A stretch of DNA of 21,862 nt from Rozella allomycis CSF55 (Eukaryota). Shown one piece after another: positions 1,132 to 21,742 of this stretch. How positions within the stretch are numbered: the stretch's first letter is position 1; the number at the start of each line of letters is the position of its first letter. The notes beneath the pieces were generated by a model, which was given only the letters and a program-made list of their open reading frames with translations, did no database searches and was not told where the DNA came from. The stretch spans positions 62,001 through 83,862 of the forward strand of contig KE561161.1 of NCBI GenBank assembly GCA_000442015.1, written 5' to 3'. A program made the translations under genes and the position numbers.

Positions 1132-2720
1132 ATGAACTTTATTGACGACATCGTAATATCGTCTCCAGACAATATTATTTATGGCAGAAAGAGCGAAATA
1201 TTTATTAAAGTCAAATTTAAAAAGGAATTTGCCCAGCCATCTATAGAAAACTGTTTGTCGTTGGTCATAAACTCTGTTAGCATAACGTTGAATAAGCTTC
1301 CCTTAATATACGACATAACATCTTTAATGTCATTTAGCTATAAAAACTACAAAATCTCTTTTGAAAATGTGAAAGTTGACGAAAATGAACATTGTGTAAT
1401 TTTTCCAGTGATTTTAAGGATATGTAAGCAAACACTCACTATGTTTGATATCAGATCCATCATTGTCAAGTTATTATGGTTCACTTGTTAATATAAATTT
1501 TCAATTGTCGAAGGATGAAAAGTCTGAAACAGCCCTTGAAAATGAACTCAAGCATGCAAGCAAAAATAATATGATAATGAAAATATTAGAATCCAATGAT
1601 TGTAACAGATGATTTATTTATGTGAGAAAGATTTGTCGTTATCAATAAAAGAGAAAAATAGGCGGCCTAGCGTGAATCCCAACGAAAACATTGGGAACTC
1701 ACTTTTTAAAAGGATTATATCTCAAAACATATCCATATCAGCTCCATTTTATGCCCAATTTTACTTTAACAAAGTAGGCATTGATTCGGTCATAGCCACA
1801 ATTGTTATCAATCACAATCCAAAAGTCCAATTGCCGATAGTAATAAAGAGTTTAGACTTGAAAATATTAAATATTAAAAGAAAAAATATTGATTCCGGTA
1901 AAAAGACGACTGATGATTGTTTTCTCATTTCTAAAATAGAAGTATGTTTTTATGCACCATTCGACAAGGAAATCACACCTTTTGTATTAGATAAGTGTGA
2001 CTATAGCGCTTTGTTTAAAATTTCTCTAATTTCTGATTTTGTTTCGGATTCTTTGTTTTCCAACGACAATGATTTTCATGCACTGCTTCATGTCATTGGA
2101 AGCGATTTTGATTTGACTCTTGAAAAATCCATTGATCTCACAGAAATGTTTCACCAAAGGCGAATAAACGATATCTCTGTCTCATTTTCGCGTAAATTGC
2201 ACTCTAGCTGTTAAAAAGTTGCCGAGAAGAGGATTGTTGTCGGAAAAGTTTTCACATTGCATGTTTTTATTGTAAACCAAAGTGAATCATGTAAAAGATT
2301 TACAATCATTATTCCTTCATCTTTCTTCAATTCCACGTAAGGTATGAAAATGCTAATCGCTCTAGAAATACGAATTCACACGTTAATGAGTTGATGGAAG
2401 GAAAGAGCAATGCGATTTTTAAAAGTGATGCAGGTAATTAATATCTTGTGTTACAATTAGAAATGCTTCAAGATGTGTACCTTTCTGAAGGACCGAAGAC
2501 AAATGTGTTTTGTTTAGAAACCGAGAGTAGCGTAGGGTAATTTATATAAATGAGATATAAAAGAATCTTAAACCCCAATGAATGCTCTCAAGTGAACTTG
2601 CATTTTATTTGTGTAAAGGAAGATTTACAATCTATTGAGAGGATTCAATTGAAAGATGAGGACTCTGGAGATGTAGTAGAATTTTCTCGTGTATTAGAAT
2701 TTATGGTAGAAAGTGATTAG
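1132..2720 (+). CDS. TRAPP complex Trs65/TRAPPC13-14-like subunit (7 exons)
   Basis: GT-AG introns 1424-1454, 1602-1630, 2192-2218, 2337-2365, 2434-2460 and 2537-2563 join into one frame ending TAG 2718-2720. The C-terminus (VSFSL..IVVGKVFTLHVFIVNQS ... VFCLETESSVGILNPNECSQVNLHFICVK..IERIQLKD) resembles the Trs65-type Ig-like domain. Confidence 0.55.
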
Positions 2721-2776
2721 AAAAATAAATTTTTGAATTGTCATTATGTAATCCCTTTTAGGGAAATCCTAGCCAC

Positions 2777-3499
2777 ATGTTTCTTTCACGATCAGTTTTA
2801 AGACGTAATGCAGTAACTCCTATGAGACAGTTACTCTCTTTAAATTTTCATAATTCGCCTAGACTATCTTTATTTTTTTCAGGAAAGCCCGAGGAACAAC
2901 CATTAAAAGCGAAAATGGAGGAAAAGAATGACGATAAAAAGACCAATGAACCAGTAGAAAATAAGCCGACTGAATCCGCTTCGCGCCAAGAACTAGAACA
3001 GAAAAAGTCTGAAGAAGTTACTAGTAAAGAAGATCCTAGGGACAAGAAGATTGAAGAATTGACTAATAAATTCAGAATGACATTGGCGGATATGGAAAAT
3101 CTTAGAAACAGGACCAAGCGAGAAGTCCAAGATGCTTCATTGTTTGCAAGTCAAAAGTTTGTCAAAGACTTGCTAGCTGTCGCCGATGTTTTGGAAATGG
3201 CGATATCAGCAGTACCAGAAGAGCATAGAAACGATGATAAAAATCCACATTTGAAAAACTTGTATCAAGGGTTAGAGACTACTAGACGTGAATTGCTAAC
3301 AATCTTCAAAAGGCATGGAGTGGAAATGTATGAACCACTTAACGAGGCATTTAATCCCAACTTGCATAATGCATTATTTCAAATTCCTTCTAAAGATAAA
3401 CCCGAGGGAACGATTTTAGTTGTAGAAAAGAAGGGATGCCTACTTCATGGACGAGTGATCAGACCTGCCAATGTAGGTGTAGCTAAAAAAGCAGAATAA
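2777..3499 (+). CDS. MGE1: Mitochondrial GrpE nucleotide exchange factor (Mge1)
   Basis: LADMENLRNRTKRE, FVKDLLAVADVLE, FNPNLHNALF, KGCLLHGRVIRPANVGV are GrpE motifs. Arg/Ser-rich N-terminal targeting peptide. Confidence 0.95.
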   Translation: MFLSRSVLRRNAVTPMRQLLSLNFHNSPRLSLFFSGKPEEQPLKAKMEEKNDDKKTNEPVENKPTESASRQELEQKKSEEVTSKEDPRDKKIEELTNKFRMTLADMENLRNRTKREVQDASLFASQKFVKDLLAVADVLEMAISAVPEEHRNDDKNPHLKNLYQGLETTRRELLTIFKRHGVEMYEPLNEAFNPNLHNALFQIPSKDKPEGTILVVEKKGCLLHGRVIRPANVGVAKKAE

Positions 3500-3554
3500 A
3501 GCAATTGTTAAATGTACTATCCAAATTTAGTTTATTTATTATTAGATTAACCGT

Positions 3555-4414
3555 TTATTCTTTGGTCTCTTTGTTTTCTGATGACTTTGTTTGAATTGAC
3601 GGGAGGGGATTTTTGTCTTCAGAAATTTCAGGATAATATTCTCTTATTGGTTGACTCTTTTGAGCCAAGGGGGTAACATTTGGCCTTGTTGGAGTGTAGT
3701 GAGAATTATTGGAATACATTCCTTGATAATTGAAATTGGAAGGCGTCGATGGCTGCGCAGAGCGTTGATGATAAGAATAATGCAATGGATGAGACTGTTG
3801 ATGAGGTGATTGTTGGAAAGATGAGCTATTTAGAGGAATTTGAGACGTTGCTTGAATTGGAGATTGATAGTAAGGACGAGATACAACTGGCCTTGGGGTA
3901 TTTGAATATTGTGGAAGTCTTAGTGGCTGCCTAACTTGAGCTTGGCTAAGCGATTGGGTTGACGGCTGAGTAGCGGATGAAATGCCCCCTGCAGTATTTG
4001 GGGCATGATAAGAATCAAATGGCCGTCCAAGGCTTTGTGGGGCTCTCTGGTTGGTTAAAAGAGACAATTTAAAGAAATTTGGATTAATATCGATTGGAGC
4101 AGGAGTTGCATGGCTATTTTTACTAAACAAGAAAATTACCTTCCCTGGCCTTGCCTTAAATAAGCGATTCTTTGGCGCGCAATTTCGTGTGTAGAATCTT
4201 GATCAAGAGCCTTTTGATAAGCGTCTAAAGCATCGTTGACTTGATTGTTGCAAGATTCATATAAAACACCCAAGTTAAACCAAACTTCAAAGATAAACGG
4301 AGAAATGTGGATGGCCCTGCTGTAGGCGTCCAACGAGTCACGAAACTGGCCAATCTTGTGGTAAAGAATCCCAATGCTGCACCAGTACGCTGGATTTCTA
4401 CTGTCACGATAAAC
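3555..4414 (-). CDS. CYC8: Cyc8/Ssn6 TPR co-repressor, 3' part only (last TPRs plus Q/P/S-rich tail); 5' part lost at the N at 4416
   Basis: VYRDSRNPAYWCSIGILYHKIGQFRDSLDAYSRAIHISPFIFEVWFNLGVLYESCNNQVNDALDAY matches the final TPRs of Ssn6/Cyc8. 26-nt GT-AG intron 4114-4139 links to ORF 3555..4130. Confidence 0.88.
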
Positions 4415-4415
4415 A

Positions 4416-4416
4416 N
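4416..4416. other. Single N, probable assembly or scaffold junction
   Basis: Cyc8 homology stops exactly at the N and an in-frame stop (4430-4432) lies just beyond it. Confidence 0.8.
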
Positions 4417-4463
4417 TAATTTTAAAACCCTAATTCCGACCAATCATCATAGAATATCTCCCC

Positions 4464-4492
4464 GTCCAGTTAACAAGCACTGCGAGACTTGT
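4464..4492 (+). repeat. Dispersed ~30-bp repeat, copy 1
   Basis: GTCCAGTTAACAAGCACTGCGAGACTTGT; 4470-4492 is 22/23 identical to the reverse complement of 15903-15925. Confidence 0.7.
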
Positions 4493-4626
4493 ATTAATAT
4501 TTCCCGTTTTAGCTGACAAGGATGAATTAAGAACCAAAAGGGTTTCAATTTTGACAATTGGGTAAGCTCAAGACTTGAAGTCAAGGTATTAAATGTACTT
4601 AGGAAGCAATAATTCATTCACAAATC

Positions 4627-5657
4627 ATGATGTGTGTTTTCAGGTGGATTTATATAATTTTAATATTCTACAAAGATCTGTGCTCACCTAACGTGATTGA
4701 CAATATAACAAATCTTGATATCCCTGTACAATATATTTAAAAATATTTTAGTTCATTTATCCATTTCATATGATACCTTATTGTCAGCATGAAGAGTATG
4801 AGGCAATCGAAAAGTTGGGTGAAGGAGGTTTCGGATCAGTTTACAAGGTGATTAACGTAAGGACCAGGAGAATATACGCCATGAAAACGACTACCGCCTT
4901 AAACAAAGAAAACTTGGATTCAATTTCTCAGTCATTTTACCGTGATGTTCGCGCACTGCATATGATGAATGATACATTTGTCACTCCGAACATTTATTGT
5001 TTCAACAATGAAGGACCGAGATATTATTTTATCATGGACTATATACCAGGAAAAAGCCTTAAACATGTTCCAAATACCCTAGTTAATGTAAGAAATGCTT
5101 TAAGTAAACTTGCGATGTCTATAAATGAGCTACATCAGCGCGGCTTGATTTGGCTTGATGTGAAAATGGATAATATAATATATTATGAAGGGAATATTAA
5201 GATTGTAGATTTTGGATTTTCTGTGACAAAGGACGATGGGCCTTCAATAATAGGTGGAACAGTCATGTATCTTTCCCCTGAACACCTAAAGTACTTCAGA
5301 ATGGATAGAAAAAAACTTATGCCAACGTCCGTTTTCGATGAATCGAGCGACTGGTTTTCATATGGCGTCATATTCTATATCTTGAATGGGCGGTTATTAA
5401 ATAATGGCAAGCGTTACTATCCTTACGAGGTTATAGATGAGACTTCCATTGAACCATTATACACAAAGGATGAAGACTACATCAAAGTCTACAGGTGGAT
5501 TCAGACAAAGCCTGAAGGGTATGACAATGATGCATGGAATTTGAGCAGAATTTTTTTGTTTCAAGACAAAAGAATACGTTTTGGGTCAAAACTTGTCCCC
5601 TACAATATATATGACCTTTTGAATCATCCGTATTTTAAACTGCGAAATAAATACTAA
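4627..5657 (+). CDS. Divergent Ser/Thr protein kinase with putative N-terminal signal peptide
   Basis: GEGGFGSVYK, AMK, WLDVKMDN, DFG, GTVMYLSPE, SDWFSYG. Exon 4627-4725 (MMCVFRWIYIILIFYKDLCSPN..) joins in phase 0 through 26-nt GT-AG intron 4726-4751. The kinase call is firm; the first exon is less certain. Confidence 0.85.
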
Positions 5658-6185
5658 TGTACTTTTTAATTTTTTGAATCTACCACATTTTAACATTGAT
5701 TATTTGATTATTGAGAAAGGGGAAACAAATTGTAAAATTGCCTTGACTATGAGGTGAAAGTTTTGGGACATATAAAGCATCACCCACATGGATTGGAACA
5801 TAGTGGTATGAACCTGAAAATTTAGAAGCCGAAGACCATTCGATGTATTTTTTTATGATTATTTAATTAAAAGTTTATTAGATAGAAAAAGTGACATTCA
5901 TGAAGCGCTTTGTGACTCATTTAATACACCACTTGTTATGAGAGCGTTACTTGACATTATTTCTCAATGCAATGTTTACATAAAAGAAACTCCAAAGTCT
6001 TCAGTTTATCCATTAAAGGAATGTGCTGATTTTGTTACAAGAATTTGCAAAGTAAACAATAAAGCTAAATTAAAAAAAGATATTTGGGGTGATTGAGACA
6101 AGAGAAACTATTGGATTTCCTGTCCAAACGTCTTCTATTTTAGAATTTTAGATTTTGATTTTTTTTCCATTTTGACCCTTGTTAA

Positions 6186-7547
6186 ATGACGAACCAAGTT
6201 CCGTACAAAGTAGCAGATATTGGGTTGGCTGATTATGGGCGCAAAGAAATAGAAATTGCAGAAAATGAAATGCCAGGACTTGTTGAGCTTCGTAAGAAAT
6301 ATGGTTCTAGTAAGCCACTGAGTGGTGCTCGTATTGCTGGTTGTTTGCACATGACTATCCAAACCGCTGTATTAATTGAGACCTTGGTTGACCTTGGAGC
6401 TGAAGTTACATGGTCAAGCTGCAACATATTTTCCACGCAAGATCATGCAGCTGCGGCTATTGCAGCAGCTGGTATTCCAGTATATGCATGGAAAGGAGAA
6501 ACCGATGATGAATATCTTTGGTGTATTGAGCAAACTTTGAAGGGATTCAAAGATGGAAAAGCCTTGAATATGATACTTGATGATGGTGGTGACTTGACCA
6601 GACTTGTCCATGATAAGTACCCAGAGCTATTGAAAGATATTAAAGGAATCAGTGAGGAAACTACCACTGGGGTGCATCACTTGTATAAAATGGTAAAATT
6701 TAATTAAATGATAAGAATAGATGAAAGATGGGTCATTGAAAGTGCCAGCTATTAATGTAAATGATTCTGTGACCAAGAGTAAATTCGATAACCTTTACGG
6801 ATGTCGTGAATCTTTGATAGATGGAATCAAAAGAGCCACTGATGTAATGATCGCTGGGAAAGTCTGTATTGTCGCTGGCTATGGAGATGTTGGCAAAGGA
6901 TGTTGTGCGGCTCTTAAAGGGATGGGAGCGCGTGTAATTGTGACTGAGATTGACCCAATCAATGCACTTCAAGCTGCTATGGAAGGGTACGAAGTGACTA
7001 CGATGGATGAAGCTGCAAAGGAAGGAAACATTTTTGTTACAACGACTGGTTGTAGAGACATTGTTACAGGAGATCATTTTTCTGTCATGAAAGATGATTC
7101 AATTGTTTGCAACATTGGTCACTTTGATGTTGAAATCGACGTTGCATGGCTAAAGAAAAATGCCACTGGCTGCGTCAATGTGAAGCCTCAAGTGGATCGC
7201 TACACTTTGCCAAACGGGAGAAGAATCATCCTTCTTGCTGAAGGTAGACTTGTCAACTTGGGATGTGCAACTGGCCATCCTTCTTTTGTTATGAGCAACT
7301 CTTTCTCCAATCAAGTTTTGGCTCAAATTGCTCTTTGGACGGATTCCTCCAAATTCCCTATCGGAGTTCACATGTTGCCTAAAAAAGTATTTTCTTAATT
7401 CATAAATTATTCTAGTTGGACGAAGAAGTCGCTTTGGCTCATTTGTCAAAGTTGGGTGTTAAATTGACAAAGCTAACAAATGTTCAAGCTGAATATCTCG
7501 GCCTCGCACCTGAAGGTCCATTCAAACCTGAACACTATCGCTACTAA
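6186..7547 (+). CDS. SAH1: S-adenosylhomocysteine hydrolase
   Basis: [53 protein letters not shown]. Introns 6693-6720 (28 nt) and 7387-7415 (29 nt). Confidence 0.98.
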
Positions 7548-7611
7548 TACTAATAAATTCCAAGACTGCTAAATTTTTATTTTATTACTTTTTATTATTG
7601 CATTTAGAACT

Positions 7612-8395
7612 TTAGACGAATTTGCTTCTCACATCCAAAATCTTATCAAAATTTACTATTATGCATACTTGAAAGTATTCTTGTTCCCTCATCGAGTACA
7701 TAAAGTCCGAAGGTATCTTGTCTTCTTTTATCATCTTTTGTGAATCTATGCCTTCAATATTTAATGTCTCGCTTTGAAGATAGCATTCAACGTGATCAAC
7801 GCTAATACATAAACGTGTTATTTGCAACTTTCTATCGAAATTCATGGTACTCCTACATCTATATGAAATCAAACAATCTTCCAATTTATATTTACCTTTT
7901 CTCGCTTTGTGATTCGTGTAATGTCTTTCTCGAATGTAGATATTGCGTACGATTCTTCATCTTGATCAGATTCTATAAGATTCACTTTAATATTTTTCAG
8001 GGTCCAGTCGTATTTATTGGTTTTTGATCTACATGCAAAAAACTCATAAAAAAAGTAAGGAATCTTTGGGCTTTCAATCTCAATGTCATCTTTTCCTCAC
8101 AGTTAAATGAACTTACAGTTATGTATTTTATCATTAGTAGTTATTCTTAGTTTGGCATTTTTACAAAAGTATGTGTTAAACATATTGTGCCAGTGGTAAA
8201 GATCTGGGAACTTTGATATCTAATCGTATGCAATCTTACCTTTGTGCAGTCAAATGTTTCACAGCGGTATTTATATATTTGGTTCACTACTAGAAACGCA
8301 TTTCTTTCCCCTAAATGGTTAAAAGCAGTTTTTGCTAAAGTCATGTGAATAAATTTCACAGATAAGTTCGGCAGGGGTGGGCCATGGTTTGCCAT
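7612..8395 (-). CDS. LIM-domain-binding (Ldb1/Adn1/Mfg1-like) domain protein, 5 exons
   Basis: Introns 8211-8239, 8090-8116, 7870-7895 (GT-TG) and 7642-7668 give one frame: LYHWHNMFNTYFCKNAKLRI..YDIEIESPKIPYFFYEFF..MNFDRKLQITRLCISVDHVECYL..KIPSDFM, resembling LIM_bind family blocks (recognised by eye). Confidence 0.55.
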
Positions 8396-8680
8396 TAGAT
8401 CCAATGAGAGGTGCCAAGTAAAGAACCAAATACCAATTATAAAATTATACTTTACTCTCTATCCAGATTCCAGATTGAAACAGTGACGAAATTAACCACA
8501 AGCCATTGTCAAAGTGTATATGACAAGTGACAAAGTATGCAAAAATGTAAAATTGCATTAAACTGGATAAAATCAAAAAAAGGAGTGTCTGCTAATTGAT
8601 TCTCAAATAAATCGATCAATTCACGTTGATTGTGGATGTCATGTGACATTGATCATTTGTAAATTTCCTGGTCCTGATTC

Positions 8681-9171
8681 ATGACGCTGAAAAATGGATT
8701 TTTGCTGGGTATAGTGATTAAAATTATCTCTCAAAAGTAAGAACAGTCGATTTTATCCACGAGAGAAAGTATGTAGCTAGAATTATATTCAGAAACACCA
8801 GTGATCATTCAAACTATTTGCTGAACATTTTTACCCAGAACGCTTTGGCGCTGCATCAAGATTTGGAAAATTATATTCTGGGAAAGTTGGTTTTACTTGA
8901 AAAATATCTGTTTAGGAATATTTATTTGTATTGGAAACTAAAGCATTTCCCTTGTTCAACGGAGAGACAAAAGATTCCATGGGCCACTCATCTAAATTTT
9001 GATACCAGTAATATTGAAATCTGTGGGTCTTCCAAATTGCGCATAGATATTACAGATTCCGTATCCGGGAGTCAGGGTCAAACTGAGCTGCGGAATTTTC
9101 GACTTACTAATTTTGAAAAGGATTTAGAAAATGCATTGAACTTGATGGTTCTTTGTTTGAAAAATAAATAA
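8681..9171 (+). CDS. Hypothetical protein
   Basis: ATG 8681 plus 29-nt GT-AG intron 8709-8737 joins in frame to the open frame containing ORF 8818..9171. No family recognised. Confidence 0.4.
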
Positions 9172-9230
9172 ATAAACTACGAATATGAATATATGGTGCT
9201 ATATAATATGTAATTAAATAGAACAAAATT

Positions 9231-11472
9231 TTATCGATCATTAAATTTATGAGGATTCCAACAAAGGTTCTCTGGATTAACTCTAAGTTGAGGCTTTAGA
9301 TTAAACTTTTTTAAAGAATTTTCGATCTCTTCTGTGTCAATCTCAATGTAGAACTCTGGTGGCCCGTCTACGCTCGCCTCAGATACTCTTAGCATATTAC
9401 AATTTTCTAATGCGCTGACAACGTCATCATTTGTCATTCCAGTCAAGGAAGATATTTCTATTTCGCTAAAAAACAATATCGTACGTGTTATTGTTGTAGG
9501 TTCACGCACATCGCTTATGGCTTCTAAAACTCTCTGCTTCCAAAATTTCCTGTAACTTATTAGACCTAAATCACTTAATGGTTTCTCAGGGGTTCCAAGT
9601 ACACCTTCAACTGACGACAGCAGATAGCTAAATTCGATGAGGAAATTTCCATATCCTTTTCTTTGATACGTTGGCATAGTCAAAATACAAGATACGTTGA
9701 AATTAGATGCTGAACATTTTTCCTGTGAATAAAGCGCACCATGAACTCTTACTTTTGAAAAGTAGCCCACAAAATGGCAGCCTTCGTTATCCCATTCGGT
9801 TAAAATATAAAATAGAAAAGGCTCTACGTCATAATAAAGAGTCTTGTGATCTAGAAACATTTTGGCGAACAGACATAAATTTTGACAGTAGATCTTTCGT
9901 AAGTTACACATGCCCTTACTTTATTGGTGGATCCATTAACTTCAAAAATAGATAATGAATCATGTCGATATATTTCGTCCCCGGGCGGATGGTTGCATTT
10001 GCATTTTACCATGTGACGAACGAGGACGACATAAGATTTCATGTATTTGAAGCAATACTCACAAATATACAAGATCCCATTGTGTGTTATATATTCCTCT
10101 GGATACGGCGCACTATACCAGGGATCAATTTCATACTTCCCAAATAGAATTGTTCTAATGCGATTGGGCGTAATTTGAGGGGTATGATTAGCTGCACTCA
10201 AATATGGTAAAGGTATATTTCTTGTTAAACCAGTTTGCAAAGAGTTGAAAGATGAAGGATTTCTAAAAAATCCAAGCGGTATTTGAGGAAAAGACGACTG
10301 TCCGCCCTGAATAGGAAACTTTGCCAGACTTGAATTTGCTACAATACTATTATGTTGAACGTTTGGTTTAAATGCATCTGATGCAAAACCGTTGAAGGTT
10401 GGCATCGTCTTGAAAGGATTCATGAAAGGATTATGGGCTACAATGCTAGGTGCACTAGTCTTATTAGAGTTTTCTACTTCTCTTTGTTTTGCCCTTGAGT
10501 CGGATAATTTGAATTTCATAATATCATCGTTTTCCGGTCGACACTTTGACGTATCTGCTTGAGTTGCAGAAAGAGCCCCTTGCATCATATGATATATATC
10601 ATCACAAGTAACTAATTTCTTTTTAGCCATTTCTGAAGCTGATCTTCGTGATATTGGGGTTCCTTCTATTATTATCGAGGTCTTTCTAGGAGTATTTCTT
10701 GAGGGCACTATAAGCTCAGACGGGATCTGCGCGGTAGTCTTTGAAGGTCGGCCTCTTTTTCTTTTAAACATAATTTTTCCGTTTTCATTGTGAATGACTT
10801 CCATATTCTTTAAACCGAAAGTTTCACCTTCAATTGTGGTCGTTCCCAAAAAATTCTTCTTTAAAGGAAGAGTGACGATAAGATTCTTCAAAGTAGTTTT
10901 ACTAAGTCTCGATTCATTTATCGTTTTGAGACTCTCCGGTAGAACGTTTTCTCCATTTACCATTTTACCCAAAAGTTGCGACTTCCAATATTCATCTTGT
11001 TCATTAACAACTGATTTTGGTAATAATAATTCACGCCCATTTTTATCTCTGATACAACAAAATGCGCAACTATTTTGGCCTTCTATTTTCTGAGAACAAG
11101 AAGGGTCATTGTGGAACGCTCTATCACAACCAGGGCATAAAATAGCATCTTCCTTTTTTTCTGTTTATCAAATATCATTTACCAAAGAAATATACTTTCC
11201 GCATTTACTACAGGTTTTACAAAGAGAACATTCCCAGCTATATTCTACTAACCTCTCTTTGCAACAATTTCTGAATCTATCGTCCGACAAAGAATCTATA
11301 GAAGGCTTGATAAAATTTTACATGTTGAGTCACATCCACTGCATTTTAGGTTTGGAGCCAAGAAATCAGCTAACTCAATATTACTATCGCCTGCGCGTTT
11401 TTCAGCATACTCGGGGAATTTTATATTCTGAGAAACATTTATATTTGCGTTTTCCTCCTCTGATGAGGTCAT
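9231..11472 (-). CDS. MYST-family histone acetyltransferase (Sas3/KAT6-like) with N-terminal PHD module and AT-hook
   Basis: [78 protein letters not shown]-terminal [23 protein letters not shown] and KRKRGRP. Introns 11296-11321, 11153-11182, 9894-9919, 9723-9752, 9458-9484. Confidence 0.92.
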
Positions 11473-11666
11473 GTTGTGATTTCGAATTTTGCTGGTTTGA
11501 AAAAATAATTTCCGTGCTTCTGTAGCAAAAATAAAACAAAACGTTTTTATTTATTGAATTAAAATAGAGAGCTTTTGAAGTATTAGTTAGTGCAAACACT
11601 GCGCCACTAATGCGATTAATACGATGTTAAAAATTAAGAATAATTTGCAATATAATACCAAATCAT

Positions 11667-13185
11667 TTATTTGCCGAACAGCTTGAGGCCTATTTTAGTA
11701 CTGGTAGAATTTTTATGATCGTTTGAGGTTAATCGAAGCGACTCAAGTTTCTTCCTTCGTTCTTCCAGCTCCATCTTTTGATTCTCCAAATGCTGTTTAA
11801 CTTCCTTGTGTTTAGTAAACAATTCTTCCTCCGTTTTCTTCAATTTTTGTTCTTTTTCCTTGACCTTATCTTCAAGCATTTGGCGTAATTCAGACTCTAA
11901 CTCTTTCAATTTGAGTTCATGATTTGCTGGCCCAACCGATGTATGGTAATGGGATCTTTGATTTTTTCAGTCGTGAAATATTACACATGGTCATTATCAG
12001 ATGAGTTTAATAATTTTTGTGCTCGAAAATTCTCATATAAAACAGTATTGGTGTATTCCTTTAAGTCTTCCATATTTGAACTATCTACACTAAAGAGACA
12101 AAGTACCGAATTAATAATTGTCTTAGTTTAGCAAAATCGTTGTGTTCCTCATTGTCAACTTTTCAAAGTTGACCGAAACCTTTACCTTCGATGACACCCC
12201 ATGGATATTTTCTTCCCCGAACTTTTTTACCGTTAATTTCAAATTCCTGTGTGCTGCCAACTACGGCAAAGGGCATTTTCTCCTTTGATAAAACAAACTC
12301 GGAAGCTTTACAATGAGTTCATGATTTTCTGACATTGTCTCTTCATCATCGTATTGATCGGCAAGTGGTTGATAAATTTGAATGCCGTGATTAGCAATGT
12401 CTTCTTTAATCAATATTTAGAATCCGCAATTTATTACCCGGGCTTTGAATTGAATGATTTCTTCTTCCGTCATTGTGTCAGCCTTTGCAATAACTGGAAT
12501 CAAGTTCGCCCTCTGGTGAAGTCGCTTCATAAACTCAACATCTACAGCGCGTAGACTGAAAATATTCATTTTAATATTTACCTATGGCCAGTTGCGGGAA
12601 TAAAATAAAGCAAGGCATGAACTCTCGTGTCAATAATGTCTTTACGGTTAACCCGGGATTCCTGTTCCAAATATGAGTTGAAACGAGATTCAATACATTC
12701 TAGAATCGGCTTCCAGCTAACTTTGTGGTTAAAAATATATGTACCAATCTTGGTTGTCAATGAAATCGCCAAAGCCAGGCGTGTCGATTATAGTGAGATG
12801 CAATTGAACACCATTTTCAGATATGTCTATTAAAATGGAAAATAAAGAATACTTCCTTGAACTGATTGTATTTCTACAGTTTTAGGGGTTTCATGACTAG
12901 GCTCTTTTTCTTCTTTTGCTGGGTAGATATATGAATTAAACAGAGTATTGACCATAGTTGACTTTCCTAAACCGGATTCCCCTGATAAACATCTCCGAAT
13001 ATCTCTACCAACAACCATCATGGTAAAATTGAAGCCTTTTTTAACAGACTTCCTATGAATTTGATTAGGTAAGTTGGAAAATCCGACATACCCATTCAAA
13101 TGGCGCTTAGTACACTTTTATTGCAGCTATTATTTTTTACCTTCTCGAACTTTGTATCTTCTATTTTATGCTCTACTTCTATCAT
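11667..13185 (-). CDS. CDC3: Septin, Cdc3/SEPT7 group (11 exons)
   Basis: [51 protein letters not shown], and a C-terminal coiled coil [16 protein letters not shown]. Introns 13115-13140, 12982-13008, 12827-12852, 12717-12744, 12556-12581, 12411-12437 (GT-TG), 12283-12311, 12159-12185, 12081-12106, 11956-11984. Confidence 0.92.
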
Positions 13186-13621: not shown

Positions 13622-15124
<1,503 letters not shown>

Positions 15125-15158
15125 TTAATAAATCTTTTTCATACATTTAATGGCTTGA

Positions 15159-15725: not shown

Positions 15726-15902
15726 CAGATTTTAAGGGGTATTCTGAATCTTGGAGATTTATTTATAATTAGATCAAGTTCTTATTTTTAAAATTAAGTT
15801 TAAATAATTTAGTACAAGCACATCAGAATGAAAATATACGTAAAATGTAAATATTGTAGTTTGCGTAGAGGAGCAGGATTGTGCTGTTGTGAATGAAAAG
15901 TA

Positions 15903-15932
15903 ACAAGTCTCGCAGTGCTCGTTAAATCGGAC
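15903..15932 (-). repeat. Dispersed ~30-bp repeat, copy 2 (inverted relative to 4464-4492)
   Basis: Minus strand reads GTCCGATTTAACGAGCACTGCGAGACTTGT; 17-nt exact core shared with copy 1. Confidence 0.7.
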
Positions 15933-16526
15933 ATAAAAATAGAATTTGTTCTGGAGTTTTTGTTGTAGCTTGAATAATAGCTTCTGAGATGTTTTCTTGT
16001 AAGTACCGTAACATGTCTGGAAATATATGGGAGTTTATAATTATCAATAATTTTTTTCACACACAGCAACTGTTTTATTTTTTGACATTATATCTATATT
16101 CAAAACAATCGGGAATTCATTTACCGCTTTCTTCTATCGCCCGTGACCTTCACATTTACCGTTTTCAGTTTCCTCTTGCGAATCCCGAATCTCCATTATT
16201 TTGTTCTGATAAATAAATGTCTATAAATTTTATCTATTAATATAATTGTTTAATCGATTGGATACTTTTTAAGATAAGGAGTCTCAAAACTAAGTGTAAC
16301 AAGCGATTCTCAAGTCCTAAAACGCTAACAAAGTAGATAAAACAACAATTATTTTACTTTAATTTAATTGCAAATAGACACAAATGTGCCATATTAATGA
16401 GCAATCCAACATACCGCTTCCAAAACTTCCGCCACCTATATCTCAACAACTATCTTTACTATATATTGAATGTTCTGAGTTCATAGGCCAAATTGGGGAG
16501 GATACGGAAGCAAAAAATGGTTACAG

Positions 16527-16538
16527 ACACACACACAC
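16527..16538. repeat. (AC)6 microsatellite
   Basis: acacacacacac read directly. Confidence 0.6.
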
Positions 16539-16715
16539 CACACGACAACACGTTGTAAATCCCTTAAAGTGAGTGTATATTCGAAATGAAAATGGCATTA
16601 AACATTTACTCAACTTGCCAATAATCGTTTCTGAAGTCCGGGTCGTAAACTCCCCGTCCGATAATATATTCACAATAAATCAATATTGAACTTTTATTTC
16701 GCTTAATTTCATCAC

Positions 16716-17632
16716 TCATGCATAAATTTCTAGCATTTCGTTTTCAATTTCGTGGATGTCACTTGGGATAATTAAAGAGTGCAAAGGACCTCCTAAAACT
16801 TCTTTGTGATTTAAGAACTCATTGATGCTTGCAAATTTTATACATTGTTCATCAGAACCTGCCTTGGAAATTCCGATCACTTTTCGATTTTTGGATATTA
16901 CTAATTAGTTAAACTTTTTACGTATTACAGTCTTCTTTTCTTTGTTTTTCAACATATAAAATTTGCTCAAGTGCCTGCCATACCGTCATGAAACGAGGTG
17001 GTTCATATATCTTCTTTCCTCTTTATTTTTATAATTCATTCAGGTACTTTAACAAATTCTCTTCACTTTGTTCTTTGACTTTTATGTCCAACAAGCAAAG
17101 GGTGTGTAATCCCAGGGATAAATTAGCCTTTATTTTATCATAAAAACTATCAGGTTTCCAACTTTCTGTAAAGAAAGGAATTGAAACCGTTTGACCAAAT
17201 CTGTAAAGTTGAAGCCCACAAACTCCAACAACGTTCATGATTGAAGCATTGTGTATAATCTTATAATTTATCCCGTCTTTTATCGCTCTAAGGACAAAGT
17301 CAGTATGGGTTGTTGCCCTAAGTCAAAGTTTATAGTTGTCTATTACCCAAACGGATCACCTACGACTAAAAATGCTACATTTTCAGTTTTTGCAGAGAGT
17401 ATAATTTCATCAGAAAAAGATTCCACACATTCTCTATCAGCTTCAATGATAGATTTCCCATAAAACGTTTCCTATCCATCACAAACAAAACTTTTACCAG
17501 GCGTTCCTTTGAGACCAGTAATAACGAAGTGTATGATTCTAGATAGACTTTTGAACAAGATTTTATGGCTTCTAGCCCTTTTACACTGATATCTTTTTCG
17601 TCTGCTAACCCTAACCCGATGATGAAAAGCAT
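16716..17632 (-). CDS. DPH5: Diphthine methyl ester synthase
   Basis: [87 protein letters not shown]. Introns 17472-17497, 17318-17346, 17021-17047, 16901-16928. Confidence 0.96.
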
Positions 17633-17662
17633 CAAAAGACAAGCCACGCATTTTTGTACTGT
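17633..17662. promoter_or_regulatory. 30-nt spacer between divergent start codons (bidirectional promoter region)
   Basis: DPH5 ATG at 17632 (-) and SR-beta ATG at 17663 (+). Confidence 0.55.
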
Positions 17663-18446
17663 ATGACATTACCCTACATTGTTGGAGCTACTTTCGTCAT
17701 ATTAATATTTATGTCTCTACGTATAGTACTTTCATTCATATTAATGTAGTGTTTGTTGCGCGTGTCACCAAAAAGAACGTTTTGACATTTGAAGAAAGAT
17801 CTAAAATTCTTATAATCGGTGGGATTAAAAGTGGAAAAACGAACCTCTTTTACTATGTACCTTTTATCAAACCATATAATTTAGCTGAAAACTGGCCAGT
17901 TCTACAACACAAGCAAATCATTAAATGCAAATATTGAAGATGCTTTTATGGACATACCATATCATGACATTGAAAATATATCAAAATATTGCAATCTGGC
18001 AAAAGGAATCATCTATGTTGTTGATAGCTCAACATTTAAAGATTCCTTTAAAGAAACAACAAAGTAGATTATATTTTATACCATGTTAGGATCATATATG
18101 ATATATTGTGCAAAACTAAGGATATCCCTTTTATACTCCTAAATAACAAAATTGATCTACCTAACTCATTAGGGTTGGATCAATTCAAATATATTCTACA
18201 AAAAGAATTGTAAATACATGAAGTACTCTAAATATTAGAAATTTTTGCCACTCTTTGAAAACTATGGACGATAGTTGTCAGCATGAGTTATTAGAGACTA
18301 ATGACACCGACGCCCTTGAACTAAATAAGTTATGCGGTCATGATGACTTGATAATTAGTGATTCTAGTATCAAATTTCATAATCTGGGTAGTCTTCCTGA
18401 ATGGTTAAAGGGATTTGATTTTGACGTGAAAAATAAAGATATTTGA
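17663..18446 (+). CDS. SRP102: Signal recognition particle receptor beta subunit (divergent)
   Basis: N-terminal TM anchor, P-loop [31 protein letters not shown]. Introns 17721-17749, 17857-17884, 18064-18089, 18210-18238. Confidence 0.75.
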
Positions 18447-18513
18447 TTGGAGTATTTTTCTCTTTTTGCATCATTTTTTAAATCAAAGGTAAACCAAACT
18501 GATAAACTCTTCG

Positions 18514-20286
18514 ATGAAGTTTAATTTCGAAGATATAAGATCCGATGCCGGTTATGTTTTCTTGAAACCTCTGACAATGGGGAAATTGCCATTTGTATTG
18601 TTTATTGACGTTGATTACTTTCCGATACGCTATATTAGTATGAGTGTATTTTTCATAACACAGCTAAAAATGAATTGAATAACTTTTTTGAAGGCATCAA
18701 AGCGCTTTCGAAAGATCGCGAGTTATTTGACTTTATTATGACTTCAGAATATGAAATGTTAAGCTTAAATCAGATGTGGGATGCCTTCCACTGTAGGAAA
18801 ATCAAAGGGGAAGTTACATCTATATTTGAGAGTAATTATACATAAATCTACTAGTCAGAAAGAATAAATGAGTGTTGTAAGTGGGTAGAAAATCTGATGG
18901 TTATTGTAATCTCGGACAGGATTGTCATCAAGGACCTGCACAAAGAAATTAGCATTATATGGATTTGCTCTTCGGCAAATGAAAATCCAATTGGCGATTT
19001 TAAGATAGAAACATCAATGTTTCTAAGAAATTGTGGGTTAGGCAGGCTTATTCCTGATATCAAATACAACGAGCGATTTCAAAAAATATTAAAGCTGATA
19101 CTTATGGAAAAGTTATTGGATAAATTACACGACAGAAAATGGAACAAAGTCGTTAATTTTATCAGTAAATTTATTGGCCTATGTATTTAAGGTCAAAACT
19201 TTAAGGCTTTCTTAAAAGTGAATCCTTTAGACTGGCTAACTGATTCAATATCTTCAGAATTTTTAATTACTAGGGATGGTAAAATTGAACGGGGGCCGAA
19301 AATCCCCACGGAAATAACAAAGGTCTACCAAATATTGTGTGCAGCATTTTTTGATATTGGAATAACCGTTACAAAACTAGTTGAGCTTATAGAAGCGAAT
19401 TTAAATGTCTTTAAAGGTGTTGGTTTAAAGGATAAAGATGACATCGTCAACTTTCTGATTGAATGTCGATTAGTTAAGGACAGGAATGGGGTTTTAAATA
19501 GTTCCATTTTTCATGGGACAATAAAGGACCCAATTGCGAAAAGAATAGATGACAGTGATCTTGAATTAGTATTGTTGAGGTTTAGGAAAGTTCTCATAAG
19601 ACACATGGAGTTTCATATTGATGCTACAATAAGAGTAACAAGTGTAAATCTAATTTACACTTAGGTAGAAAAATTATTTGGCATTTTGTCAAATCTAATT
19701 GATGATGGTATCCTTCTTAATTCGCATGCATAATACAGGCATAATACCTGCTTATTCTAGAAATCTGTTTGTTGAGACATTGGAGCAAAAGGGATTTATC
19801 AAAAGTAGAGGTGGAAAACTAATTTCTTTGACTGAGTCCTTTTTGTCTAAGTATGAAGGTAATTATCTTTATCGCCAATAATATGTGGTGCCTAGCATGG
19901 CAAACACTACTTCACAAAATTCATTAGATGGCGAAGAACAAAAGGCTGGTGAAAATGTTGCAAAAAAGAAAACCAATTTCAAATCGATTAAAGAAAATCA
20001 AGTTGCTCCAAAAACAAAAGCAGAATCTAATTGTAACGTCGTGGTGAAAGATGTGATTGATGATGTTCCCGTCAAGAATATTCTGGATGATGTGTCCATT
20101 AAGAAGATTCTCGCGACATTGAAGTTTATGAAATTTTTTCATAAGAAGACAAGTTTTACATTTGATGAAGTCAAGAAACGTTATCTAAAAATGTTTAGTG
20201 GTTCCGAAAACGACGCCAATTCCAAATTTGACATGGCAGCTAGGCAAAAGATAATAACTGTAGTAGATAATAAAATAATCGTTTAA
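18514..20286 (+). CDS. Multi-exon hypothetical protein, possibly degenerate NYN-like domain plus winged-helix repeats
   Basis: Introns 18638-18663, 18832-18858, 19165-19191, 19635-19664, 19708-19738 and 19859-19885 (GT-TG; alternatively GT-AG 19851-19895) join ORFs 18897, 19218, 19699 and 19885 into one frame. The domain call is tentative. Confidence 0.65.
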
Positions 20287-20354
20287 GTATTAAATATCTC
20301 CAGTTTATATTGGCAAAATTATGTAATAATGTTATCATAAAAATAGAGCTTTTG

Positions 20355-20717
20355 TCATGAACTCCAGAAATATACATTTGCGACAACGACAAATAACATT
20401 AAAATCAATGATTGAAAAATGATAAACTTTTTGAATTTAGGCTCTAATTCCCCCTGTTTAAACCACTTAAGTAAAACAAATATTGAACCTCCATAGCAGG
20501 ATATGGCAAGAGCAAATATTACATGAAGACCATTGGAATATATACCTCGAATAGTTGCAATTATGACAGTTAGGGCTAGAGAAAACCCGACAAAAGAAAT
20601 CGTTGAATTCTGAAATATTTTATCCTAAATCAAGACAATTTCCTAAAATACTTGAATTGGTTGAAATGAGAAAAGCGGCTGCTCTTCTATAGTAGACCTG
20701 TTTGATTCTGTTGCCAT
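20355..20717 (-). CDS. TMEM243: TMEM243 (C7orf23)-like small membrane protein
   Basis: 27-nt intron 20625-20651. EQPLF..QDKI..KWFKQGELEPKFKKFI..ANVYFW parallels animal TMEM243 RPLF..KDRI..WYRQGDLEPKFRKLI..ANLYF. Absent from the ORF track. An in-frame upstream ATG lies at 20756. Confidence 0.8.
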
Positions 20718-21145
20718 ATGCAATCTTAATCTATATTTGCTAAATTTCCTTGTCATATAATCTAAATTTGGCTTCTAAAAATATCCAAGTTTGTGATGTA
20801 AAAAATATGATTGCATGAAGATAACAGTCATTTCATGCGGGAGATACATCCTTACAATAGAACTAGACTACAAAAACACTTTATGCAGTTGAATCATATT
20901 CCAACGGATCTTCTATTGAAGAATTATTTTAAACCTCTCTAATTAATCTTTTGGTAATTTAAGCAACTAAAGACCCAGAGAATGGATCTTTACATCAGTG
21001 TCGCAGGAAAAAGCGGTTCCTGATGTTTGCACACATGTGACATTTTAGCTTTTTAGGCCAAGGGCCTCTTCTTTCTAATAATGATTTGATAAAATATATG
21101 AGATATGATAAAATCAACTAAATTCAATAACGTTTGCCTCTCCAT

Positions 21146-21742
21146 TTATTGATGGGTTACCGTAAACAAGTCAATGTGGGAGTTCTTTGTCAGATCTGCA
21201 TCAGAAGAAAAATATTTCATAATCTTAAAGTCGTCATTAATATCAATAGGTGTGAATTCTTTCGAATTTCTAATATTTGAGTTGGCTCCTCTGGCTAGAA
21301 GGATTTTCACAACTTCGCCTGCACCATAGAGGGTAGCCAAATGCAATGCCTATATTTAGATTCCATTTATCGTACCTATGTTTTCGACATCAATATTTTA
21401 CTGTATTATTTCCACCAAAAGTAATGTCTAAATCGTCAGTGAATGATTTATCAATGATTTCTTTGGCTAGGTCATCCTGTCCCCATATAATTGCAGCGTG
21501 TAGGCCTGTGACTGAGCCTATGTACGCCCCAAGAAATTTATAAGCATCAAGTTCTATTTCGCCTTCATATTTGAAATCATTATGTCTGTATTTTATTTTC
21601 GCTAAATCTGGATGCTCAGTCAACATCCCCCTTACAATATCAGTCTGACCATTCTTAATTGCTTTAAAGTAATTCTTTGATTGAAATAGGGTTAAATTAC
21701 CTCAATTATCGAGAACGGTAACGATTTGGCGGGAGCTGACAT
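21146..21742 (-). CDS. Ankyrin-repeat protein
   Basis: FKAIKNGQTDIVRGML, TGLHAAIIWGQDDLAKEII, NT|ALHLATLYGAGEVVKILLARGAN, FTPID. Introns 21675-21700 and 21350-21401 (two abutting 26-nt units). Confidence 0.85.

What the first reader, a model, noticed from the sequence alone, without database searches (positions are those of the whole stretch)
1424..21700. Length-ruler splicing: about 59 introns all 26-31 nt with a hard floor at 26 nt
Seen: every intron I could map is 26-31 nt. AGs nearer than 26 nt to the donor are repeatedly skipped, as required by reading frame: AG at position 25 (1602-1630), 24 (13807-13834; 12717-12744), 17 and 22 (12081-12106), 22 (11153-11182), 20 (8211-8239), 23 (18832-18858). 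Many introns lack a polypyrimidine tract or clear YTRAY branch point and end in purine-rich AAAG. Known: ultrasmall introns occur in heterotrich ciliates, Paramecium, microsporidia and nucleomorphs. Inference: the 3' splice site is chosen mainly by distance from the GT, which also explains the GT-TG and zero-exon findings below.
Basis: partly seen in the sequence, partly recalled or inferred. Interest (0 to 1): 0.8.

Follow-up and report, generated by a model that had tools for sequence, protein, structure and literature searches.

The report
Tiny fixed-length introns in Rozella
This stretch of the fungal parasite Rozella allomycis is full of introns only 26 to 31 bases long whose ends can be predicted by counting from their starts; such tiny introns are known elsewhere, and the counting rule is still untested by experiment.

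Summary
The window is Rozella allomycis nuclear DNA. A protein-to-DNA aligner with a flat intron penalty (4-300 nt) and 1 to 18 homologues per gene recovered 26 GT-AG introns in five conserved genes. All are 26-30 nt and none is shorter. With reading-frame-based models I curated 53 GT-AG introns: 26 nt x16, 27 x13, 28 x8, 29 x11, 30 x3, 31 x2. The rule 'first AG whose G lies at least 26 nt from the donor' predicts 52 of 53 acceptors. An A at donor position +23 occurs in 38 of 53 introns against 48 of 129 decoy sites. There is no polypyrimidine tract or branch consensus.

Six are excluded by frame and two (AG17, AG20) are not. One intron could be 18 nt GT-AG rather than 27 nt GT-TG.

No RNA data were available, so the ruler mechanism is inferred. 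Public gene models already contain these introns, and similar systems are published for ciliates, microsporidia, dicyemids and myxozoans. I rate it a new member of a known kind, with unproven but interesting extras: TG acceptors and a 26+26 tandem.

The parts
13807..13834 (+). thiolase intron, 28 nt GT-AG; AG ending at 24 skipped
   Evidence: 18/18 homologues; AG24 shifts the frame
13933..13958 (+). thiolase intron, 26 nt
   Evidence: 18/18 homologues
14068..14093 (+). thiolase intron, 26 nt
   Evidence: 18/18 homologues
14234..14260 (+). thiolase intron, 27 nt
   Evidence: 18/18 homologues in AG-only runs
14529..14555 (+). thiolase intron, 27 nt, in frame without a stop
   Evidence: 18/18 homologues
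14670..14697 (+). thiolase intron, 28 nt; AGs ending at 11, 13, 15 skipped
   Evidence: 17/18 homologues; one chose 14691-14718, also 28 nt
14853..14878 (+). thiolase intron, 26 nt
   Evidence: 18/18 homologues
14947..14974 (+). thiolase intron, 28 nt
   Evidence: 18/18 homologues
15035..15063 (+). thiolase intron, 29 nt
   Evidence: 18/18 homologues
12982..13008 (-). septin intron, 27 nt, in frame without a stop, just before the P-loop
   Evidence: 14/16 homologues
12827..12852 (-). septin intron, 26 nt
   Evidence: 16/16
12717..12744 (-). septin intron, 28 nt; AG ending at 24 skipped
   Evidence: 16/16; AG24 gives a stop after 1 codon
12556..12581 (-). septin intron, 26 nt
   Evidence: 16/16
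12283..12311 (-). septin intron, 29 nt
   Evidence: 14/16 AG-only, 16/16 with any acceptor allowed
12159..12185 (-). septin intron, 27 nt
   Evidence: 15/16
12081..12106 (-). septin intron, 26 nt; AGs ending at 17 (in frame, open) and 22 (frameshift) skipped
   Evidence: 15/16
11956..11984 (-). septin intron, 29 nt
   Evidence: 16/16 AG-only
13115..13140 (-). septin first intron, 26 nt
   Evidence: reading frame only; AG14 gives an in-frame stop
9894..9919 (-). MYST acetyltransferase intron, 26 nt
   Evidence: 14/16; same as public model P0001
9723..9752 (-). MYST intron, 30 nt, in frame without a stop
   Evidence: 15/16; public model
9458..9484 (-). MYST intron, 27 nt, in frame; AG19 skipped
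   Evidence: 15/16; public model
11296..11321 (-). MYST intron, 26 nt
   Evidence: reading frame; public model
11153..11182 (-). MYST intron, 30 nt; AG ending at 22 skipped
   Evidence: reading frame; public model
17472..17497 (-). diphthine synthase intron, 26 nt
   Evidence: 11/16; the other 5 chose a different donor, giving 20, 11 or 44 nt; public model P0286 identical
17318..17346 (-). diphthine synthase intron, 29 nt
   Evidence: 16/16; P0286
17021..17047 (-). diphthine synthase intron, 27 nt
   Evidence: 16/16; P0286
16901..16928 (-). diphthine synthase intron, 28 nt; AG15 skipped
   Evidence: 15/16 AG-only; P0286
6693..6720 (+). S-adenosylhomocysteine hydrolase intron, 28 nt; AG23 skipped
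   Evidence: 1/1 homologue
7387..7415 (+). S-adenosylhomocysteine hydrolase intron, 29 nt
   Evidence: 1/1 homologue
1424..1454 (+). orphan gene 1132-2720, intron of 31 nt
   Evidence: reading frame only
1602..1630 (+). same gene, 29 nt; AG ending at 25 skipped
   Evidence: reading frame; AG25 gives an immediate stop
2192..2218 (+). same gene, 27 nt
   Evidence: reading frame
2337..2365 (+). same gene, 29 nt
   Evidence: reading frame
2434..2460 (+). same gene, 27 nt
   Evidence: reading frame
2537..2563 (+). same gene, 27 nt; AG18 in frame and open
   Evidence: reading frame
8211..8239 (-). orphan gene 8395-7615, 29 nt; AG20 in frame and open, so 20 nt is not excluded
8090..8116 (-). same gene, 27 nt
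   Evidence: reading frame
7925..7950 (-). same gene, 26 nt; AG22 skipped
   Evidence: reading frame
8737..8765 (+). weak orphan gene, 29 nt; the one exception to the rule (AGs ending at 27 and 29)
   Evidence: reading frame only
17857..17884 (+). small GTPase-like gene (my reading of its motifs), 28 nt
   Evidence: reading frame
18064..18089 (+). same gene, 26 nt
   Evidence: reading frame
18210..18238 (+). same gene, 29 nt
   Evidence: reading frame
18610..18638 (+). orphan gene 18514-20286, 29 nt (GTT donor)
   Evidence: reading frame
18832..18858 (+). same gene, 27 nt; AG23 skipped
   Evidence: reading frame
19165..19191 (+). same gene, 27 nt
   Evidence: reading frame
19635..19664 (+). 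same gene, 30 nt
   Evidence: reading frame
19708..19738 (+). same gene, 31 nt
   Evidence: reading frame
6052..6079 (+). short gene resembling the C-terminal part of cysteinyl-tRNA synthetase (my reading, not tested), 28 nt
   Evidence: reading frame, read; sequence shown
4114..4139 (-). TPR gene, 26 nt; AG17 in frame and open
   Evidence: TPR repeats confirmed
21675..21700 (-). ankyrin-repeat gene, 26 nt
   Evidence: reading frame
21350..21401 (-). ankyrin-repeat gene, 52 nt removed; made of two 26-nt GTA..AG units meeting at AG|GTA (21401-21376 and 21375-21350)
   Evidence: the downstream exon starts at Ank profile position 5
20625..20651 (-). orphan membrane-like gene, 27 nt
   Evidence: reading frame
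12411..12437 (-). septin 27-nt GT..TG intron; the nearest downstream AG ends at 34 and is out of frame
   Evidence: 16/16 homologues choose it when non-AG costs double; score gain 65-81
13661..13688 (+). thiolase 28-nt GT..TG candidate joining the ATG exon to exon 2
   Evidence: 15 of 16 homologue alignments begin at 13689; an in-frame stop lies just upstream and there is no AG before 13712
14363..14389 (+). thiolase: 27-nt GT..TG, or 18-nt GT-AG (14363-14380), or no intron
   Evidence: AG-only runs: 18 nt in 17/18. Non-AG allowed at double cost: 27 nt in 16/18, gain only 1-6 points. Public model P0391 keeps all 27 nt
19859..19885 (+). 27-nt GT..TG candidate joining ORF 18514-19881 to ORF 19882-20286
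   Evidence: frame arithmetic only

Best explanation
These are genuine spliceosomal introns of Rozella allomycis, compressed to the shortest length its spliceosome can handle.

Given a GTA donor, the intron end is fixed by geometry rather than by a sequence motif. An adenosine about 23 nt from the donor, probably the branch point or part of its docking site, sits at a fixed distance from the 5' splice site. The acceptor is the first AG whose G lies at least 3 nt beyond it. That puts the acceptor 26-31 nt from the donor.

AGs nearer the donor lie before or on top of this A, so they cannot be used. In practice the 3' site can be read off by counting from the GT.

Shown here: the intron positions and lengths, the predictive rule, the donor-anchored A, and the lack of a pyrimidine tract or branch consensus.

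Inferred: that A+23 is the branch point, that the spliceosome itself measures the distance, and that TG ends and the 26+26 tandem are consequences of it.
For: 26 of 26 homology-mapped introns are 26-30 nt, although the aligner allowed 4-300 nt at equal cost.

The length distribution starts abruptly at its mode: 16 of 53 at 26 nt and none below.

The first-AG-at-or-beyond-26 rule gives 52 of 53 acceptors. Accuracy falls to 36 of 53 at a threshold of 27 and to 28 of 53 at 8.

The 20 internal AGs ending at position 15 or later are tolerated. 15 of them would shift the frame and 1 would give an in-frame stop.

A at +23 occurs in 38 of 53 introns against 48 of 129 decoys, Fisher p = 3e-5. In introns of 27 nt or more it is 24 of 37 against 37 of 107, p = 0.002. 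Donor anchoring is significant (family-wise p = 0.004) and acceptor anchoring is not (p = 0.8).

Where no AG lies at 26-31, homology puts the septin exon junction at a TG 27 nt from the donor in 16 of 16 alignments.

Hadjez et al. 2026 (PMC13644364, whole text read) report the same trend in myxozoan and dicyemid introns of 20-27 bp: the conserved A's lie further from the AG in longer introns.
Against: No RNA-seq, cDNA or lariat evidence was available. No RNA holder was listed.

27 of the 53 introns rest on reading frames in genes without known families (7 of 10 reading frames tested had no Pfam match). I curated them after the expected length was already known.

Five internal AGs, ending at 17, 17, 18, 18 and 20, are in frame and open, so shorter variants cannot be excluded from sequence alone.

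The thiolase 14363 intron is an 18-nt GT-AG in 17 of 18 AG-only alignments.

The intron at 8737-8765 breaks the rule.

A+23 is missing in 15 of 53 introns. In the homology-only set of 27 nt or more it is 11 of 18, p = 0.31.

If A+23 is the branch point, 26-nt introns would have a 3-nt tail. That is shorter than the 5-nt tail inferred for Stentor (PMC9505925, passages seen).

129 decoy sites fit the rule, so it cannot be the whole recognition code.
Confidence: 0.55

Rival explanations
1. Ordinary branch-point scanning with no donor ruler. Each intron has its own weakly defined branch point, and the spliceosome takes the first AG a few bases after it. The narrow 26-31 nt range would then be an evolutionary end state: a deletion bias has shrunk the introns to the smallest size that still works. 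It would not be a measuring mechanism.
For: A sharp lower bound on intron length is usual in compact genomes (my own knowledge). Stentor shows an acceptor-anchored branch A at position 10 of 15 nt or 11 of 16 nt (PMC9505925). A at -4 is also enriched here, 32 of 53. In the homology-only subset the donor-anchored signal is not significant.
Against: In introns of 27 nt or more the best acceptor-anchored A column is at background (18 of 37, p = 0.8). The donor-anchored column +23 is not (24 of 37, p = 0.004). YTRAY-like motifs are no more frequent than in shuffles and are scattered over positions 5-25. AGs ending at 22-25 occur in 8 of 53 introns (9 AGs) and are skipped.
Confidence: 0.3
2. The sharpness is partly an artefact of sampling and curation. 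One 22-kb window, with half of its introns chosen by reading frame under a length expectation, overstates the rule. Genome-wide there would be a real tail of shorter and longer introns and some alternative use of the nearer AGs.
For: Gene finders without homology readily produced 8-20 nt and 100-380 nt 'introns'. Five in-frame open AGs and an 18-nt alternative exist. Several 5' gene ends are unresolved: the TPR gene around the N at 4416, the GTPase-like gene and the cysteinyl-tRNA-synthetase-like gene. Ciobanu et al. 2021 give 29 bp as the lowest median intron length among the fungal genomes they compared, a set that includes R. allomycis (PMC8042348, passages seen). The table that names the species is a supplement I could not open.
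Against: The 26 introns mapped with no length prior are all 26-30 nt. Every spurious short call was inconsistent between homologues, appearing in 1-4 of 16. Public models made by others agree exactly for 9 introns.
Confidence: 0.1

Closest known systems
Ultra-short introns of myxobolid myxozoans and Dicyema japonicum (Hadjez et al. 2026, PMC13644364; whole text read, supplements not seen)
   Same: Median intron length is 22-27 bp. The 5' signal is reduced to GTA and the 3' signal to AG. There is no pyrimidine tract. Weakly conserved A's lie further from the AG the longer the intron is, which means they are donor-anchored.
   Different: These are animals, not a fungal relative, so the origin is independent. 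TG acceptors, tandem 26+26 units and an explicit first-AG rule are not mentioned there. Their introns go down to 20 bp, while here nothing is below 26.
Stentor coeruleus 15-16 nt introns (Nuadthaisong et al. 2022, PMC9505925; passages seen)
   Same: Near-constant intron length, a GTA donor, AU-rich sequence, and a putative branch A at a set position with no branch consensus.
   Different: In Stentor the A keeps a constant 5-nt tail to the acceptor (position 10 of 15, 11 of 16). Here the A keeps its distance to the donor and the tail varies from 3 to 8 nt.
Short introns of Microsporidia such as Encephalitozoon cuniculi (Whelan et al. 2018, PMC6349667; passages seen)
   Same: Microsporidia are the sister lineage of Rozella and have miniature introns. 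That paper already notes two ~30-nt putative introns in the Rozella S23 gene that lack the E. cuniculi 5' and branch motifs.
   Different: Microsporidia have few introns, with conserved extended motifs and low splicing efficiency. This window has about 57 introns in 22 kb with almost no motif.
TG dinucleotides as 3' splice sites in human U2-type introns (Szafranski et al. 2007, PMC2374985; abstract seen)
   Same: GT..TG introns removed by the major spliceosome have been verified experimentally (36 human genes).
   Different: In the abstract they are alternative 3' splice sites. Here the TG would be the only productive acceptor, 27-28 nt from the donor, in 2 to 4 of about 57 introns, and this is not verified by RNA.
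Recursive splicing through zero-length exons in Drosophila (Pai et al. 2018, PMC6110457; search listing and abstract only)
   Same: An AG|GT junction inside an intervening sequence lets it be removed in successive pieces.
   Different: It is known for very long introns. Here it would serve a 52-nt sequence made of two 26-nt units, and it is inferred from sequence only.

Membership tests
U2-type GT-AG spliceosomal introns | GT at the 5' end and AG at the 3' end | tested here: met
   53 of 57 candidates are GT..AG and 51 of those 53 begin GTA. The other 4 candidates end in TG.
U2-type GT-AG spliceosomal introns | Removal restores an uninterrupted protein collinear with its homologues | tested here: met
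   26 introns in 5 genes, found by spliced alignment with 1-18 homologues per gene. The other 27 are supported by reading frame only.
U2-type GT-AG spliceosomal introns | Branch-point adenosine forming a lariat | tested here: inconclusive
   No YTRAY consensus. A donor-anchored A at +23 occurs in 38 of 53. No lariat data.
U2-type GT-AG spliceosomal introns | Absent from the mature mRNA | not testable with these tools
   No RNA holder was listed. The one run that was laid gave only chance pieces of 21-33 nt.
Ultra-short-intron genomes (ciliates, microsporidia, nucleomorphs, dicyemids, myxozoans) | Median intron length below about 30 nt with a narrow distribution | tested here: met
   The median is 27 nt and the range 26-31 in 53 introns of this window. 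Genome-wide values could not be computed because no genome is held.
Ultra-short-intron genomes (ciliates, microsporidia, nucleomorphs, dicyemids, myxozoans) | Reduced splice-site motifs and no polypyrimidine tract | tested here: met
   The information lies in G1, T2, A3, weakly A4, and the final AG. The pyrimidine fraction is 0.50.
Recursive (zero-length-exon) splicing | Internal AG|GT junction that regenerates a donor after the first step | tested here: met
   21401-21350 is two 26-nt GTA..AG units joined at AG|GTA. Removing all 52 nt fits the ankyrin repeat profile.
Recursive (zero-length-exon) splicing | Splicing intermediates observed | not testable with these tools
   No RNA data.
TG 3' splice sites | Exon junction at a TG, shown by transcript sequence | tested here: inconclusive
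   Homology places one junction at a TG in 16 of 16 alignments (septin). A second is supported by where homology starts. Two are ambiguous. No transcripts.

The most novel reading that the evidence does not exclude
In Rozella the second catalytic step would be aimed by distance and not by sequence. The spliceosome would cut at the first G-ending dinucleotide 26-31 nt from the donor, preferring AG but accepting TG when no AG is in range. Anything longer could only be removed in 26-nt instalments through AG|GTA junctions. That would make this a natural measuring spliceosome with a working window of six nucleotides. It would also explain why public gene models of this genome are truncated or fused wherever a TG intron or an in-frame intron occurs.
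Probability: 0.3. Interest if true: 0.8.

Novelty: new member of a known kind. Interest (0 to 1): 0.55.

Why it matters
How the 3' splice site is chosen when an intron has no room for a pyrimidine tract or a spaced branch point is an open question. It was raised again in 2026 for animal introns below 30 bp (PMC13644364).

Rozella is the intron-rich sister of the nearly intron-free Microsporidia. Its introns therefore show the state just before intron loss. A simple counting rule that predicts 52 of 53 acceptors gives a concrete hypothesis that RNA-seq and lariat mapping can test.

There is also a practical side, because public Rozella gene models go wrong at these introns. The thiolase model P0391 lacks the first 125 residues. 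The septin in P0001 keeps a 9-residue insert, skips about 66 residues and is fused to the neighbouring acetyltransferase. An annotation pass that knows the 26-31 nt rule, in-frame introns without stops and TG ends would repair such models.

Tried and rejected
RNA evidence. The look-up of sequencing runs listed no RNA holder. The one same-species-label metatranscriptome run (X1) was laid and gave 8 contig pieces. The ones shown are 21-33 nt long at 90 percent likeness or more, with no introns bridged. I take them as chance matches.

Whole genome. None is held for this window. So I could not make a genome-wide intron histogram or check U2AF, SF1, Slu7, Prp18 or Prp8.

Dicyemid or myxozoan origin. 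This was my first guess, from intron size and GC content. It was rejected when public Rozella allomycis proteins matched at 99-100 percent.

Codon-usage gene finders of my own. With a flat intron cost they preferred 100-380-nt 'introns'. With a short-intron preference they produced 8-20-nt 'introns'. Examples are 14670-14682 (13 nt) and 9870-9851 (20 nt). Homology contradicts both, so I used these finders only as drafts.

Solved-structure search. Instead I fetched homologues with DNA references and aligned them to the DNA in scripts.

Short 'introns' of 4-18 nt near 9354-9400 in the MYST alignments appeared in only 1-4 of 16 homologues. I treat them as alignment gaps.

Pfam. 7 of 10 reading frames matched no family. 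Rfam and tRNA scans found nothing.

Literature. Searches for a published description of Rozella intron lengths or a ruler found only Whelan 2018, Lim 2021 (intron density 2.5 per kb) and Ciobanu 2021. James et al. 2013 is not held, and supplements were closed.

Full report
What the window is.

The sequence is eukaryotic nuclear DNA with the standard genetic code and about 35 percent GC. A reading frame from the septin gene matches a public protein of Rozella allomycis CSF55 at 99 percent (P0001). Reading frames of the diphthine synthase and thiolase genes match public Rozella proteins at 100 percent (P0286; P0391). My first guess was a dicyemid or a myxozoan, based on a 2026 paper on animal introns below 30 bp. 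That guess was wrong. No whole genome is held. No RNA holder was listed, and the one related run that I laid gave only chance matches. Everything below therefore rests on DNA, homology and literature.

Checking the intron map without a length prior.

I wrote a protein-to-DNA aligner. It allows GT..AG introns of any length from 4 to 300 nt at one flat cost. I fed it homologues fetched by reference: two bacterial thiolases and one bacterial adenosylhomocysteinase from plasmid records, 16 fungal septins, 16 MYST acetyltransferases, 16 diphthine synthases and 16 further thiolases.

The calls that agree between homologues are:
- Thiolase: 9 introns, 8 of them in 18 of 18 homologues and one in 17 of 18.
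- Septin: 8 introns in 14-16 of 16.
- MYST: 3 introns in 14-15 of 16.
- Diphthine synthase: 4 introns in 11-16 of 16.
- S-adenosylhomocysteine hydrolase: 2 introns with its one homologue.

All 26 introns are 26-30 nt: 26 nt x8, 27 x6, 28 x6, 29 x5 and 30 x1. Calls outside this range were inconsistent, appearing in 1-4 of 16 homologues, and sat in poorly conserved stretches. Five of the 26 are in frame without a stop, so only homology can reveal them.

Public gene models agree. My diphthine synthase model is identical to P0286 over 268 of 268 residues. My five-intron MYST model matches the corresponding part of P0001 at 99.3 percent over 700 residues.

The full set.

Adding introns that are supported only by reading-frame continuity gives 53 GT-AG introns: 26 nt x16, 27 x13, 28 x8, 29 x11, 30 x3 and 31 x2. 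Most of the added genes are orphans (7 of 10 reading frames had no Pfam family). I curated these 27 after the pattern was already apparent, so they are weaker evidence.

The skipped AGs.

Six would shift the frame. These are AG17 in 12081-12106 and AG20 in 8211-8239. Homology rejects AG17 in 15 of 16 alignments. AG20 stays open.

In the modelled genes 20 internal AGs end at position 15 or later. Of these, 15 shift the frame, 1 gives an in-frame stop and 4 are open. A fifth open one is AG17 in the TPR gene.

Is it more than chance?

Internal AGs are only mildly depleted, 36 observed against 48.7 expected. So these AGs are tolerated rather than avoided.

The rule 'first AG whose G is at or beyond position k' peaks sharply at k = 26, with 52 of 53 correct overall and 26 of 26 in the homology set. 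It gives 51 at k = 25, 36 at k = 27 and 28 at k = 8.

At non-intron GTA sites the first AG at or beyond position 26 is spread out: 129 fall at 26-31, 131 at 32-40 and 239 beyond 40. All 51 intron GTA donors fall at 26-31.

Signals inside the introns.

Information is confined to G1, T2, A3 (51 of 53), weakly A4, and the terminal AG. The stretch from -14 to -3 is half pyrimidine. 16 of 53 introns end in AAAG. YTRAY occurs no more often than in shuffles and at scattered positions.

The one internal signal is an A at donor position +23, present in 38 of 53 introns. It is not just the A at -4 of the 26-nt introns. In introns of 27 nt or more it is present in 24 of 37, with family-wise p = 0.004 against shuffled interiors. 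The best acceptor-anchored column reaches 18 of 37, p = 0.8. Decoy GTA..AG(26-31) sites carry A at +23 in 48 of 129, Fisher p = 3e-5. For lengths of 27 nt or more the comparison is 24 of 37 against 37 of 107, p = 0.002. In the homology-only subset of 27 nt or more the count is 11 of 18, which is not significant.

How it most likely works.

The simplest reading is a minimal-intron regime. The branch adenosine, or whatever docks there, sits at the shortest workable distance from the 5' splice site, near +23. The second step then takes the first AG at least 3 nt further on. AGs ending at 17-25 lie before or on this A and are invisible to the machinery.

It matches the remark of Hadjez et al. 2026 that in myxozoan and dicyemid introns the conserved A's move away from the AG as introns lengthen. 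It differs from Stentor, where the putative branch A keeps a constant 5-nt tail.

A weak point is that a 3-nt tail in 26-nt introns would be shorter than any I could find described. The A may therefore not be the branch point itself.

The rule also cannot explain donor choice. 129 decoys fit it, some of them inside conserved exons. Real introns are only somewhat more AT-rich, 0.73 against 0.65.

Related oddities that bear on the mechanism.

Where no AG lies at 26-31, the productive junction appears to fall at a TG 27-28 nt from the donor.
- Septin (12437-12411): all 16 homologues choose this junction even at double cost, gaining 65-81 score points. The nearest AG, ending at 34, is out of frame.
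- Thiolase (13661-13688): homology begins at 13689 in 15 of 16 alignments, an in-frame stop lies just upstream, and an ATG exon with a GTA donor lies 28 nt before.
- Two others are ambiguous. 14363-14389 competes with an 18-nt GT-AG intron, which would breach the floor, and with no intron at all. 19859-19885 rests on frame arithmetic only.

The one longer intervening sequence, 52 nt in the ankyrin-repeat gene, is two 26-nt GTA..AG units joined at AG|GTA. Removing all 52 nt fits the ankyrin profile. TG acceptors and recursive splicing both have precedents. Here both are inferred from sequence only.

Comparison with what is known, and verdict.

Ultra-short, near-constant introns with minimal signals are established in ciliates, microsporidia, nucleomorphs, dicyemids and myxozoans.

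For Rozella I found three relevant papers:
- a passing note on two ~30-nt introns that lack motifs (Whelan 2018);
- an intron density of 2.5 per kb (Lim 2021);
- a lowest median of 29 bp among fungal genomes that include Rozella (Ciobanu 2021; the species table is a supplement I could not open).

Five searches found no description of the length floor, the counting rule, the +23 A, TG ends or the tandem unit. James et al. 2013 was not available.

I rate the confirmed part as a new member of a known kind. The mechanism is plausible but unproven.

Noticed in passing
12411-12437 (-), 13661-13688 (+), 14363-14389 (+), 19859-19885 (+): Four candidate introns of 27-28 nt begin with GTAAT and end in TG (TTG three times, ATG once). 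In each, no AG lies 26-31 nt from the donor. The septin case is strongly supported by homology (16 of 16 alignments), the first thiolase case moderately, and the other two are ambiguous.
   Followed up: partly
21350-21401 (-): The only intervening sequence longer than 31 nt is 52 nt. It consists of two 26-nt GTA..AG units meeting at AG|GTA, which suggests stepwise removal through a zero-length exon.
   Followed up: partly
11667-13185 (-) and 9231-11472 (-): Public model P0001 fuses the septin gene with the neighbouring MYST acetyltransferase gene. It also keeps a 27-nt in-frame intron and skips about 66 septin residues around the TG intron.
   Followed up: partly
13622-15126 (+): The public thiolase model P0391 (284 aa) starts at an internal methionine in exon 5. 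It lacks the first 125 residues, although those residues align well with 16 homologues.
   Followed up: yes
5804-6150 (+): This short gene resembles only the C-terminal part of cysteinyl-tRNA synthetase (my reading, not tested). It has at least two tiny introns, 5845-5873 (29 nt) and 6052-6079 (28 nt). There is no room for a catalytic domain between it and the kinase gene that ends at 5657.
   Followed up: no
4390-4760 (-), N at 4416: The 5' part of the TPR gene is unresolved. The stretch holds a single N, a possible 40-51-nt intervening sequence and no long reading frame.
   Followed up: no
whole window, e.g. 6292, 6369, 6472, 6523, 6617, 6987 (+) inside the hydrolase exons: 129 sites fit GTA plus a first AG at 26-31 nt but are not introns. 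The visible signals therefore cannot be the whole recognition code.
   Followed up: partly
8737-8765 (+): This is the one intron that breaks the first-AG rule, with AGs ending at 27 and 29. It lies in a weak orphan gene whose first exon is speculative.
   Followed up: no
15750-16700: About 1 kb has no convincing gene on either strand. It includes an imperfect CA-rich run near 16523-16545. No Rfam or tRNA match was found.
   Followed up: partly
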